Positions 4,650 to 5,561 of a DNA stretch of 11,196 nt are shown here, piece after piece. This DNA comes from a virus (taxonomy: Duplodnaviria; Heunggongvirae; Uroviricota; Caudoviricetes). The DNA lies in IMG/VR virus record IMGVR_UViG_2541047814_000003, positions 1-11,196 of that record; one strand, 5' to 3'. Numbering within the stretch: the first letter of the stretch is position 1; each line of letters begins with the position of its first letter. The notes below the pieces were generated by a model. The model was not told the origin of the DNA and did not search any database. It saw only the letters and a list, made by a program, of their open reading frames with translations. Position numbers and translations under genes: made by a program.

Positions 4650-4898
4650 CTACTCTGCTAATTTGCTCAGCCCCATGTCTGCGTAAGTGCGATTTACTGC
4701 ATTTCTCAGGTCTGCATAGTTCTCCGTTGGCGGCTCCGGTGGCCTCTGTGCCTTCCTGGAACATTCCAGCCGTCGCATCGTAACCTGATGCCGTTCCTTG
4801 TCTGTCTCCACCAGTTGCATGACTTCACCCCATCGTGCCGCCGCCCTCCGGTAAAAGCCTTTTGCCTCGAGTTCCTCCGCTATGCGGTCATGTACCAT
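4650..4898 (-). CDS. Tentative PerC/Pch-family-like regulator (82 aa from ATG 4898; alternative starts 4925, 4940, GTG 5018)
   Basis: Motif DRIAEELEAKGFYRRAAARWGEVM recalls the PerC-family signature (LE.KG.WRRAA.RW) from memory; GGGGG SD with 5-nt spacer before ATG 4898. Start and family both uncertain. Confidence 0.4.
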   Translation of the reverse strand: MVHDRIAEELEAKGFYRRAAARWGEVMQLVETDKERHQVTMRRLECSRKAQRPPEPPTENYADLRNAVNRTYADMGLSKLAE

Positions 4899-5076
4899 CC
4901 TCACCCCCTCAGAACGGAATATCATCACCGTAAGGGTCATCGCCTCCCGCTGGTGGCTGATTACCCTGTGTGCCTGTGGTTTTGCGTCTGTTCCCGCCAG
5001 GACGTGCCGCACGGGCACTGATTACGCTGTCTGCAATAACCTGATAACCCTGCCGCGTTTCCCCGTTCTGTCCGGT

Positions 5077-5319
5077 TCACTGGCTGACCTGCATCGTGCC
5101 GGATACGCTGGCAACGTCGCCTTTTTGATGTTTAGCCAGGAAGTCGGCCTGCTTACCAAACGCCATCACCGATAGCCATAACGTAGCCTGCCCATCCTGC
5201 GCCTGACTACATGGCAACGATACCGCCATACGTGCCAGCGTCATTGGTGTGCCCTTGCTGGTCTGTTTTACCTGCGGGTCGTCCACCAGCCGCCCGTAAG
5301 CTGCTATCTGTGCTGTCAT
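5077..5319 (-). CDS. Truncated SSB-like OB-fold protein (80 aa)
   Basis: ATG at 5319 with GAGGTG SD (5-nt spacer); GRLVDDPQVKQTSKGTPMTLARMAVSL and WLSVMAFGKQADFLAKHQKGDVASVSGTMQV align by eye to the E. coli SSB N-terminal OB-fold (GNLGQDPEVRY...ITLA / WHRVVLFGKLAEV...GGTMQM); lacks the SSB C-terminal tail. Confidence 0.55.
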   Translation of the reverse strand: MTAQIAAYGRLVDDPQVKQTSKGTPMTLARMAVSLPCSQAQDGQATLWLSVMAFGKQADFLAKHQKGDVASVSGTMQVSQ

Positions 5320-5561
5320 GATTCCACCTCTCCGGTTTTAACGTTGATGGTTGTTACCTGTTCCGCTTCGGCAATCTCCCGTTCTGTCAGCGTGGCAAAG
5401 TTTGCAGCTGCCGTTGTCATGAATGCGCTAATCAGTTCGGGATGTGCTTTCGCATATCCTTCCCCGGCGTTGCGGTCGATGATTTTTATCGACACCCTTA
5501 ACCAGTGTTCCGTCAAATCAAGGGCGTGCGATTGTGATTTTTTTGTGTGCTTCGCTGTCAT
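5316..5561 (-). CDS. Hypothetical protein (81 aa)
   Basis: ATG at 5561 with weak SD; stop TGA overlaps start of the next gene (ATGA at 5316-5319), suggesting co-translation. Confidence 0.5.
   Translation of the reverse strand: MTAKHTKKSQSHALDLTEHWLRVSIKIIDRNAGEGYAKAHPELISAFMTTAAANFATLTEREIAEAEQVTTINVKTGEVES

What the first reader, a model, noticed from the sequence alone, without database searches (positions are those of the whole stretch)
4650..5561. Three-gene operon after the origin: unknown 81-aa protein, truncated SSB-like OB-fold protein, tentative PerC-like regulator
An 80-aa SSB N-terminal OB-fold without the C-terminal tail is unusual and could be a replication accessory factor or a decoy interfering with helper replication or recombination. 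PerC-family proteins (if the call holds) are prophage-borne regulators that can cross-talk with host or helper gene expression. The 178-bp gap before the PerC-like start is unexplained.
Basis: partly seen in the sequence, partly recalled or inferred. Interest (0 to 1): 0.45.

Follow-up and report, generated by a model that had tools for sequence, protein, structure and literature searches.

The report
Satellite SSB gene broken by stop
The "tail-less 80-aa SSB" is an ordinary 136-aa single-strand-binding gene of a known E. coli phage satellite (EcCICFT073 type) cut short by one TGG-to-TGA mutation, the unexplained 178-bp gap is the rest of that gene, and the PerC call is correct, so the finding is ordinary.

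Summary
The three minus-strand ORFs are real: an 81-aa gene (5316-5561), an SSB-like ORF (5077-5319) and a PerC-family gene (4650-4898). They lie just after an iteron origin (5612-5836). The window is 100% identical to E. coli HVH 196 and is an EcCICFT073-type phage-inducible chromosomal island (PICI).

The "truncated SSB" is not a distinct protein type. In EcCICFT073, EcCIEDL933 and two other islands the gene encodes 136 aa. Here one G-to-A change turns Trp81 (TGG) into TGA. The next 55 codons remain in frame and intact, and they end in the canonical SSB tip GDDIPF. PerC starts 10 nt after the ancestral ssb stop. This accounts for the 178-bp gap exactly.

A probe census of 5,426 complete E. 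coli genomes found nine with single-nucleotide nonsense alleles of this satellite ssb (Q39, W81 twice, E87, Q93). NCBI annotation marks as "internal stop" pseudogenes all six of these that I inspected, covering every allele type.

The PerC call is strong (Pfam 121 bits) and the protein is identical to EcCICFT073 PerC. The 81-aa protein is a satellite-specific helical hairpin of unknown function.

Verdict: a known module with a sporadic ssb pseudogene. Low-level UGA read-through by tRNA-Trp would restore the wild-type protein. That is the only mildly novel reading left.

The parts
5612..5836 (.). Satellite replication origin: 10 iterons GGTGAACAGT in both orientations within AT-rich DNA, between the primase gene and the three-gene module
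   Evidence: 13 matches in the window, 10 of them here; 0.52 expected by chance; G+C 31-38%.
5316..5561 (-). 81-aa gene of unknown function. Predicted helical hairpin, found only in satellites. Its stop overlaps the ssb start by 4 nt (ATGA).
   Evidence: phrog_1231, E=5e-50. No Pfam, NCBIfam or PADLOC match. AlphaFold2 model has two long helices, pLDDT 72.9. No fold match. No homologue in 50,697 phage records. 163 homologues found, those listed almost all Escherichia.
4909..5319 (-). Full extent of the satellite ssb gene (137 codons including the natural stop), interrupted here by a premature stop at codon 81
   Evidence: In-frame translation gives MTAQ...VSQ*TGQNGETRQGYQVIADSVIS...GGDDPYGDDIPF*. 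It differs from EcCICFT073 ssb at only 2 nt: one synonymous change and TGG to TGA. The intact version passes NCBIfam TIGR00621 (58.5 bits against a cut-off of 53.95).
5077..5079 (-). Premature stop codon TGA, replacing Trp81 (TGG). This position is the equivalent of Trp88 of E. coli SSB.
   Evidence: Alignments. BLASTP against E. coli SSB aligns W81 with W89 (Met1 numbering), which is W88 in mature numbering. The E. coli SSB sequence used was verified against PDB 1eqq.
5077..5319 (-).
   Evidence: Pfam SSB match covers residues 5-79, HMM positions 4-81 of 104. The exact product is EQU02201.1 of E. coli HVH 196.
4909..5076 (-). The bulk of the 'unexplained gap': the untranslated 3' remnant of ssb (55 sense codons plus the natural stop), encoding the last OB strands, a short linker and the SSB C-terminal tip GDDIPF. 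It contains no in-frame ATG, GTG or TTG.
   Evidence: read directly from the sequence.
4899..4908 (-). 10-nt ssb-perC spacer GGGGGTGAGG (Shine-Dalgarno-like)
   Evidence: CFT073, EDL933, STEC2018-607 and 23CRST038 have the same 10-nt spacing.
4650..4898 (-). PerC-family gene, 82 aa, start ATG at 4898
   Evidence: Pfam PF06069 at 121.3 bits, with HMM position 1 at the Met encoded at 4898. 82/82 identical to the EcCICFT073 PerC homologue, and all four NCBI-annotated homologues start MVHDRIAEELE. The exact sequence occurs on 798 contigs.
4610..4627 (-). Intrinsic-terminator-like hairpin (AGCCGGAGCAATCCGGCT followed by TTTTTT), 22 nt after the perC stop. Likely end of the transcription unit.
   Evidence: This is a consensus scan only.
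5849..7681 (-). D5-type primase-helicase (pri-rep) directly upstream. No sigma-70-like promoter was found between it and the 81-aa gene, so the module is probably the distal part of the same transcript.
   Evidence: D5_N, DUF5906, Pox_D5; phrog_864 DNA primase; no minus-strand promoter-like site in 5561-5849.

Best explanation
The window is the complete EcCICFT073-type PICI of E. coli HVH 196. Its gene order is int, alpA, pri-rep, iteron origin, then a conserved accessory module, then lambda-like capsid, decoration and small-terminase genes.

The module has three genes. The first is an 81-aa helical-hairpin gene. The second is a satellite ssb that is normally 136 aa: an OB fold, a short linker and an acidic C-terminal tip ending DDIPF. 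The third is a perC-family gene that starts 10 nt after the ssb stop.

In this island a single G-to-A transition changed ssb codon 81 from TGG (Trp, the equivalent of E. coli SSB W88) to TGA. The main product is therefore an 80-aa fragment that lacks the last part of the OB barrel, the linker and the protein-recruiting tip. This fragment is most likely unfolded and inactive, so ssb here is a pseudogene or at best a hypomorph.

Shown here: the mutation, the intact in-frame remnant, the family norm of 136-141 aa, and the sporadic occurrence of other nonsense alleles elsewhere.

Inferred: the intact protein coats ssDNA at the satellite origin and recruits host replisome partners through its tip during helper-induced replication. 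Its loss is tolerated because the essential host SSB substitutes. Loss of ssb-perC translational coupling may lower PerC output. UGA read-through by Trp-tRNA could restore a few percent of wild-type protein.
For: (1) The window is 100% identical over 11,196 nt to GCA_000458975.1 KE700797.1, E. coli HVH 196.

(2) Alignment with four intact islands shows a single nonsense substitution and no frameshift. The window differs from EcCICFT073 ssb by only 2 nt.

(3) The Pfam SSB match stops at HMM position 81 of 104. W81 aligns with E. coli SSB W88.

(4) The allele is real, not a sequencing error. The identical 411-nt gene with TGA is found in five independent assemblies: NCBI, two ENA metagenome assemblies and two Logan assemblies.

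(5) The allele is rare. Of 731 complete genomes holding this ssb segment, none matches the 80-nt probe exactly. Four O157:H7 genomes carry the same W81 TGA on a different ssb haplotype.

(6) A clean probe census found further nonsense alleles: W81 to TAG, E87 to TAA, Q39 to TAG and Q93 to TAG. Nine of 5,426 genomes are affected. NCBI flags 'internal stop' pseudogenes in all six that I inspected, covering every allele type.

(7) The PerC start at 4898 matches all annotated homologues and HMM position 1.
Against: No expression or protein data exist, so inactivity of the 80-aa fragment is inferred, not shown.

The TGA allele has persisted long enough to sit on at least three recombinant island backbones. 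The identical block shared with the window is 4.6 kb in L005 but only 0.68 kb in L007. So the allele is not strongly counter-selected, which is also what one would expect if it kept some function.

Three of the six independent nonsense events hit codon 81. TGA at a Trp codon is one of the few stops whose read-through restores the wild-type residue (PMC10570021, PMC11126739).
Confidence: 0.88

Rival explanations
1. Leaky-stop hypomorph. The UGA at the Trp81 codon is read through by Trp-tRNA at about one to several percent. The island would then still make some wild-type 136-aa SSB alongside the 80-aa fragment, and this reduced dose is tolerated or even favoured.
For: [quoted passage not shown] Reporter read-through ranges from 0.7% to 6% depending on stop-codon identity, and up to 14% has been reported for TGA (PMC11126739; mechanism in PMC10570021). 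The downstream 55 codons are intact in all carriers. W81 TGA arose at least twice, on haplotypes whose nearest differences lie 9 nt upstream and 26 nt downstream of the mutated base. The allele sits on several recombinant backbones.
Against: The census also finds TAG and TAA nonsense alleles at Q39, W81, E87 and Q93, which cannot restore the wild-type protein this way. That pattern fits plain decay. With the window's own event excluded, 2 of the 5 other events fall at W81, which is not significant (my estimate p~0.09, using 2 of the 19 transition routes). An intact downstream frame is expected anyway for a recent mutation. No recoding signal was looked for or found.
Confidence: 0.08
2. One reading: the 80-aa OB fragment is a functional accessory factor or decoy that interferes with helper replication or recombination, for example by poisoning SSB tetramers.
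For: The fragment keeps the N-terminal strands and two of the aromatic ssDNA-contact positions, W48 and F54, which align with E. coli SSB W54 and F60. The allele is found in several samples.
Against: The fragment ends inside the OB domain at HMM position 81 of 104. The family norm is 136-141 aa in the E. coli islands inspected and 147 aa in a Klebsiella relative (L019), all with a C-terminal tip. The allele is present in under 1% of carriers. Genuine tail-less SSBs such as B. subtilis SsbB keep a complete OB fold of more than 100 aa; the PDB entry 3vdy chain is 116 aa.
Confidence: 0.03
3. Sequencing or assembly error in the HVH 196 draft genome.
For: It is a single-base difference in a draft assembly.
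Against: The identical TGA allele is present in four other independent assemblies from different samples. The same codon change also occurs in four complete O157:H7 genomes.
Confidence: 0.01

Closest known systems
EcCICFT073, the prototype Gram-negative PICI of E. coli CFT073 (Fillol-Salom et al. 2018, PMC6092414; 2019, PMC6739421)
   Same: Same gene order from int to the capsid-E and decoration-D homologues (c1499, c1500). DNA is 97.3% identical over window positions 2260-5526. PerC is 82/82 identical. ssb differs by 2 nt. The perfect palindrome upstream of the capsid operon is also shared.
   Different: CFT073 ssb is intact at 136 aa. CFT073 has an 85-aa version of the upstream small gene. 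It sits at a different integration site next to phoQ, whereas this island lies beside clpS (L006) and its close relatives STEC2018-607 and 23CRST038 lie between clpS and cspD. CFT073 has a different gene in the position where this island has a Nu1-like small terminase.
EcCIEDL933, the prototype capsid-forming PICI (bioRxiv 10.1101/2022.09.08.507074)
   Same: Carries the same small-gene, ssb, perC module after its replication gene, with ssb 97.3% identical. Related O157:H7 islands carry the very same W81 TGA pseudogene.
   Different: It has a complete HK97-type head module (capsid, protease, portal, connectors, HNH, TerS, TerL) and a DUF927 replication protein. The window has neither.
E. coli chromosomal SSB (PDB 1eqq and 1eyg; 178 aa)
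   Same: OB-fold homology at 26% identity, E=7e-10. The equivalents of W54, F60 and W88 are conserved, and the C-terminal tip DDIPF is shared.
   Different: The satellite protein is 136 aa with a much shorter linker. The W40 equivalent is Cys. In this window the protein is cut at the W88 equivalent.
EPEC PerC and EHEC Pch regulators (Pfam PF06069)
   Same: Strong profile match, and the same small size.
   Different: According to PMC11773190, citing Porter et al. 2005, the PerC-like proteins of EcCICFT073 and EcCIEDL933 had no effect on LEE1 promoter fusions, and the EcCIMP1 homologue represses LEE. I could not read Porter et al. directly. The window protein also has a weak, sub-threshold match to ANR-family anti-activators.
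Naturally tail-less SSB paralogues (for example B. subtilis SsbB, PDB 3vdy)
   Same: They lack the C-terminal acidic tip, as the 80-aa product does.
   Different: They keep a complete OB domain; the 3vdy chain is 116 aa. The window product stops about a quarter short of the end of the domain, and it does so through a nonsense mutation rather than by gene design.

Membership tests
Bacterial SSB (Pfam PF00436 / NCBIfam TIGR00621) | Complete OB-fold ssDNA-binding domain recognised by the family profile | tested here: not met
   The 80-aa product passes the Pfam score cut-off (42.9 bits against 26) but matches only HMM positions 4-81 of 104, so the domain is incomplete. The uninterrupted gene (EcCICFT073 sequence, 2 nt different) passes TIGR00621 at 58.5 bits against a cut-off of 53.95. 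The gene is therefore an SSB family member; its product in this window is a fragment.
Bacterial SSB (Pfam PF00436 / NCBIfam TIGR00621) | Conserved aromatic ssDNA contacts (E. coli SSB W40, W54, F60, W88; from established structural work, recalled from memory) | tested here: inconclusive
   The BLASTP alignment pairs W48 with W54, F54 with F60 and W81 with W88, while the W40 position is Cys37. In the window, W81 is the stop codon.
Bacterial SSB (Pfam PF00436 / NCBIfam TIGR00621) | Acidic C-terminal tip (D-D-D-I-P-F type) that recruits partner proteins | tested here: not met
   The tip is encoded (GDDIPF*, 4909-4929) but lies downstream of the premature stop, so it is absent from the primary product. 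It is present in intact relatives as DDIPF, DGIPF, DDIQF, DDISF or DNIPF.
Bacterial SSB (Pfam PF00436 / NCBIfam TIGR00621) | Homotetramer formation and ssDNA binding | not testable with these tools
   This needs biochemistry.
PerC family (Pfam PF06069) | Profile match above the gathering score over most of the model | tested here: met
   121.3 bits against 22.6, HMM positions 1-77 of 90. Also phrog_994 and several 'transcriptional activator' PHROGs.
PerC family (Pfam PF06069) | Activation of ler/LEE1 transcription (the activity that defines EPEC PerC and EHEC PchABC) | not testable with these tools
   Literature only. PMC11773190 states that the PerC-like proteins of EcCICFT073 (identical to this one) and EcCIEDL933 did not affect LEE1 fusions.
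PICI, EcCICFT073 type | int, alpA, pri-rep, an iteron origin directly 3' of the replication gene, an island of about 10-12 kb, and packaging-related genes at the far end | tested here: met
   int 9958-11196; an AlpA-like gene within 9339-9635 (Phage_AlpA hit on the identical gene of L006); D5-type primase 5849-7681; iterons 5612-5836; capsid-E, decoration-D and Nu1-like TerS homologues. Synteny with CFT073. In L006 the island is flanked by clpS.
PICI, EcCICFT073 type | Induction and high-frequency transfer by a helper phage | not testable with these tools
   Shown experimentally for EcCICFT073 itself (PMC6092414), not for this island.
Capsid-forming PICI (cf-PICI) | Own complete head module: HK97 capsid, protease, portal, head-tail connectors, TerS and TerL | tested here: not met
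   The window covers the whole island. It has no portal, no large terminase and no full-length protease; one 137-aa ORF matches only the C-terminal end of a head maturation protease profile. EcCIEDL933 has the full set.

The most novel reading that the evidence does not exclude
The W81 UGA is not simple decay but a tolerated or selected leaky stop. tRNA-Trp read-through would restore wild-type SSB at a few percent, while the bulk product is an N-terminal OB fragment. The satellite would then have a low-dose or condition-dependent SSB, since read-through rises at low temperature and in stationary phase. This would explain why codon 81 was hit in three of six independent nonsense events and why the allele persists on several recombinant island backbones.
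Probability: 0.05. Interest if true: 0.4.

Novelty: already known. Interest (0 to 1): 0.13.

Why it matters
It matters little as a discovery. The island type, its module and the pseudogene status of equivalent alleles are already in public annotation and in the PICI literature.

Three points are useful. First, the apparent "tail-less mini-SSB" and the "unexplained gap" are one artefact of a single nonsense mutation, so no decoy hypothesis is needed. Second, many 80-aa "partial SSB" database entries are contig-end artefacts. Third, roughly a quarter of complete E. coli genomes matched at least one ssb probe (about 1,270 of 5,426), and neither this satellite ssb nor its 81-aa partner was mentioned in the PICI papers I searched. 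The sporadic nonsense alleles suggest ssb is dispensable for island maintenance, which is a testable statement about satellite replication.

Tried and rejected
(1) 81-aa protein. Pfam, NCBIfam and PADLOC gave no hit. The AlphaFold2 model is a helical hairpin at pLDDT 72.9. Foldseek against the PDB and BFVD gave nothing with an E-value below 2. tblastn against 50,697 phage records found nothing. Its function remains unknown.

(2) The satellite SSB has no close relative among cultured phages; the best matches are at most 35% identical. PerC has one weak phage hit.

(3) A scan of species-representative genomes found only Klebsiella relatives at 58-60% identity. In the two inspected, ssb follows the replication gene directly, with no 81-aa gene or PerC.

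(4) I first counted P0014 and L010 as further truncated alleles. They turned out to be contig-end partials and were rejected.

(5) The first two multiplex nonsense-probe designs were swamped by seeds created by natural polymorphisms and spacer coincidences, giving about 1,270 records. The third design was clean.

(6) A Dcm-site hotspot as the cause of the W81 change was rejected: no CCWGG motif overlaps the mutated base (read from the sequence).

(7) Short-patch gene conversion between the two TGA haplotypes is unlikely, because the tract would have to be under 35 nt.

(8) Rfam and tRNA scans of the window were empty.

(9) Porter et al. 2005 (PMC543544) could not be read. Its result is cited second-hand from PMC11773190.

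Full report
WHAT IS THERE. The window carries, all on the minus strand, a tyrosine integrase (9958-11196), an AlpA-like gene, a D5-type primase-helicase (5849-7681), and an AT-rich stretch packed with iterons. The three ORFs of the finding follow, and then homologues of the lambda E capsid protein, the D decoration protein and the Nu1 small terminase. The iteron GGTGAACAGT occurs 10 times, with at most one mismatch, between 5612 and 5836, against 0.5 matches expected in the whole window. G+C there falls to 31-38%. The window is 100% identical over all 11,196 nt to scaffold KE700797.1 of E. coli HVH 196. In that scaffold the island is bounded by clpS. Its organisation and much of its sequence match EcCICFT073, the prototype Gram-negative phage-inducible chromosomal island: 97.3% identity over window positions 2260-5526 (PMC6092414). 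It is not a capsid-forming PICI, because it has no portal, large terminase or full-length protease, unlike EcCIEDL933.

CHECK OF THE OBSERVATION. The 80-aa ORF (5077-5319) matches Pfam SSB at E=5.4e-11, and the PerC call is strong rather than tentative at E=2e-35, 121 bits against a cut-off of 22.6. The PerC profile begins at the Met encoded at 4898, and all four NCBI-annotated homologues start with the same MVHDRIAEELE. The 81-aa ORF belongs to phrog_1231, of unknown function. Its stop overlaps the ssb start (ATGA). A hairpin followed by a T-run lies 22 nt after the perC stop. No promoter-like site lies between the primase gene and the 81-aa gene. The three genes are therefore probably the tail of the replication transcript rather than a separate operon, though that rests on a consensus scan only.

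THE KEY RESULT. In the closest complete genomes the middle gene is 411 nt, or 136 aa, and perC follows 10 nt after its stop. Aligning the window with these genes shows one decisive difference. Codon 81 is TGA instead of TGG, and there is no frameshift. Read through the stop, the window encodes ...VSQ*TGQNGETRQGYQVIADSVISARAARPGGNRRKTTGTQGNQPPAGGDDPYGDDIPF*, which is the rest of the OB domain, a short linker and the canonical SSB C-terminal tip. The window gene differs from EcCICFT073 ssb at only two nucleotides, one synonymous change and this nonsense change. The 178-bp 'gap' is therefore 168 nt of ssb (55 codons plus the natural stop, 4909-5076) followed by the 10-nt spacer GGGGGTGAGG (4899-4908).

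The 80-aa product is not a complete OB fold. The Pfam match ends at model position 81 of 104. W81 aligns with Trp88 of E. coli SSB (reference sequence verified against PDB 1eqq). From established SSB structures, recalled from memory, what follows W88 is the L45 hairpin and the last strand that closes the barrel. The remnant has no in-frame ATG, GTG or TTG, so the tail cannot be made separately (read from the sequence).

IS THE ALLELE REAL, AND HOW COMMON IS IT? It is not a sequencing error. The identical 411-nt gene with TGA occurs in five assemblies from different samples. These carriers share an identical block around ssb, 4.6 kb in L005 and 0.68 kb in L007, but differ outside it. That points to one origin followed by recombination onto at least three island backbones.

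Among 5,426 complete E. coli genomes, 731 hold this ssb segment and none matches an 80-nt probe perfectly. A 41-nt probe centred on the TGA finds four O157:H7 genomes. There the same codon-81 TGA sits in an EcCIEDL933-like cf-PICI, on a clearly different ssb haplotype whose nearest differences lie 9 nt upstream and 26 nt downstream of the mutated base. That is an independent event. NCBI annotates the gene as a pseudogene with an 'internal stop' in the two of these four genomes I inspected.

I then built a multiplex probe set for the single-nucleotide nonsense changes on two haplotypes: 83 distinct probes, with 41 such changes possible on the CFT073 sequence. After two failed designs, a clean search hit nine genomes. 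They were W81 to TGA in four, W81 to TAG in one, E87 to TAA in one, Q39 to TAG in two and Q93 to TAG in one. I inspected one genome for each of the four other alleles; all are flagged 'internal stop' and I verified them by translation. About 1,270 genomes matched at least one ssb probe in the two unclean runs. So roughly 1% of carriers have a nonsense allele. This is a lower bound, because frameshifts and divergent haplotypes are not covered.

This is the pattern of sporadic decay of a dispensable accessory gene. Other parts of the module also vary or decay. PerC is frameshifted in strain AF39. It is absent from the 3.4-kb Klebsiella loci inspected and from the short stretches fetched for M7424, 2014EL-1345-2 and OkiPb01701, and a ProQ/FinO gene follows ssb in some islands.

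MECHANISM. Shown: the mutation, the intact remnant, the family norm of 136-141 aa, and the conservation of the C-terminal Phe and acidic tip.

Inferred: the intact satellite SSB coats ssDNA produced when the island's primase-helicase opens the iteron origin. Through its tip it recruits host partners, which is the established role of the SSB C-terminus (own knowledge). This would supplement host SSB during helper-induced replication. In HVH 196 that contribution is lost or strongly reduced, and the island relies on host SSB. The 10-nt ssb-perC spacing suggests translational coupling in the ancestral state. Here ribosomes stop 178 nt before the perC start, so PerC output may fall. The untranslated stretch is G-rich rather than C-rich (61 G against 44 C), which argues against strong Rho-dependent polarity.

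PerC itself is identical to the EcCICFT073 protein. According to PMC11773190, citing Porter et al. 2005, which I could not read, that protein did not affect LEE1 fusions. Its target in the satellite life cycle is unknown.

The 81-aa protein is predicted to be a two-helix hairpin (pLDDT 72.9). It has no structural or family match and no homologue in cultured phages. Its conserved overlap with the ssb start suggests a functional link, but nothing more can be said.

RIVALS. The only non-trivial alternative is that the UGA is leaky. In E. coli, UGA is the most read-through stop codon and is decoded mainly as Trp (PMC10570021, PMC11126739), which here would restore the wild-type protein. Three of the six independent nonsense events fall on codon 81. 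However, one of these is TAG, and the events at Q39, E87 and Q93 are TAG or TAA. With the ascertaining event removed the enrichment is not significant (about p=0.09 by my estimate). The decoy idea has no support. The fragment is an incomplete domain and a rare allele, and genuine tail-less SSBs keep the whole OB fold.

COMPARISON AND NOVELTY. The module is the one present in EcCICFT073 and EcCIEDL933, two experimentally studied islands. The genes are annotated in RefSeq as 'single-stranded DNA-binding protein' and 'PerC family transcriptional regulator', and equivalent broken alleles are annotated as pseudogenes. The PICI papers I searched do not mention the ssb or the 81-aa gene, so their roles are uncharacterised, but nothing here is a new kind of element.

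VERDICT. Novelty: already known. Interest: low.

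Noticed in passing
window 4423-4454: A perfect 15-nt inverted repeat, AATCATAACTGGATG-NN-CATCCAGTTATGATT, followed on the minus strand by a T-run. It lies between the only sigma-70-like site found in the scanned region 4150-5900 (4508 to 4479, minus strand) and the start of the 68-aa gene and capsid operon (ATG at 4395). It could be an operator or an attenuator controlling the packaging genes. Its 11-nt core arms (ATAACTGGATG-NN-CATCCAGTTAT) are conserved exactly in EcCICFT073 and in five other loci.
   Followed up: partly
window 835-1325: A cluster of direct repeats downstream of the last island gene: 51-60-nt repeats at 835/1146, 899/1209 and 873/1058, and five copies of a 25-nt unit with a TCAGCGRGTTACCG-like core. 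This may be the cos region or small-terminase binding region of the island.
   Followed up: no
L011, L012, L027 (ssb codon 81) compared with window 5077-5079: Codon 81 (Trp) of the satellite ssb was hit in three of six independent nonsense events: TGA on the CFT073-type haplotype, TGA on an O157:H7 cf-PICI haplotype, and TAG in O157:H7 strain 7409. This is suggestive of a hotspot or of tolerance, but it is not statistically convincing.
   Followed up: partly
L010, L013-L016: Draft-assembly contigs often end within 0-2 nt of ssb codon 80/81. This creates 80-aa 'partial' SSB database entries that mimic the nonsense allele. The break probably arises because the 3' half of ssb is nearly identical between co-resident islands.
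   Followed up: partly
L022-L026 (E. coli) and L017, L019 (Klebsiella): The genes next to the satellite ssb vary. PerC is frameshifted in strain AF39. No PerC lies between ssb and the capsid gene in M7424. A ProQ/FinO-family gene follows ssb in O169:H41, OkiPb01701 and JNEC-KY176. In Klebsiella, ssb (147 aa in L019, ending YDDDF) follows the replication gene directly, with no 81-aa gene.
   Followed up: no
window 8282-9328 (-) and 8667-8987 (+): The 348-aa minus-strand ORF looks spurious. The gene called in the identical L006 locus, and a YlcI/YnfO-family gene at the corresponding place in relatives, lie on the opposite strand here (about 8682-8987, +). This makes a short divergent unit between alpA and the replication genes.
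   Followed up: no
window 4653-4898: The PerC protein has a weak, sub-threshold match to the ANR family of anti-activators (NCBIfam NF033650, E=1e-3, 18.9 bits against a cut-off of 32). This echoes the report that the EcCIMP1 PerC-like protein represses rather than activates LEE (PMC11773190).
   Followed up: no
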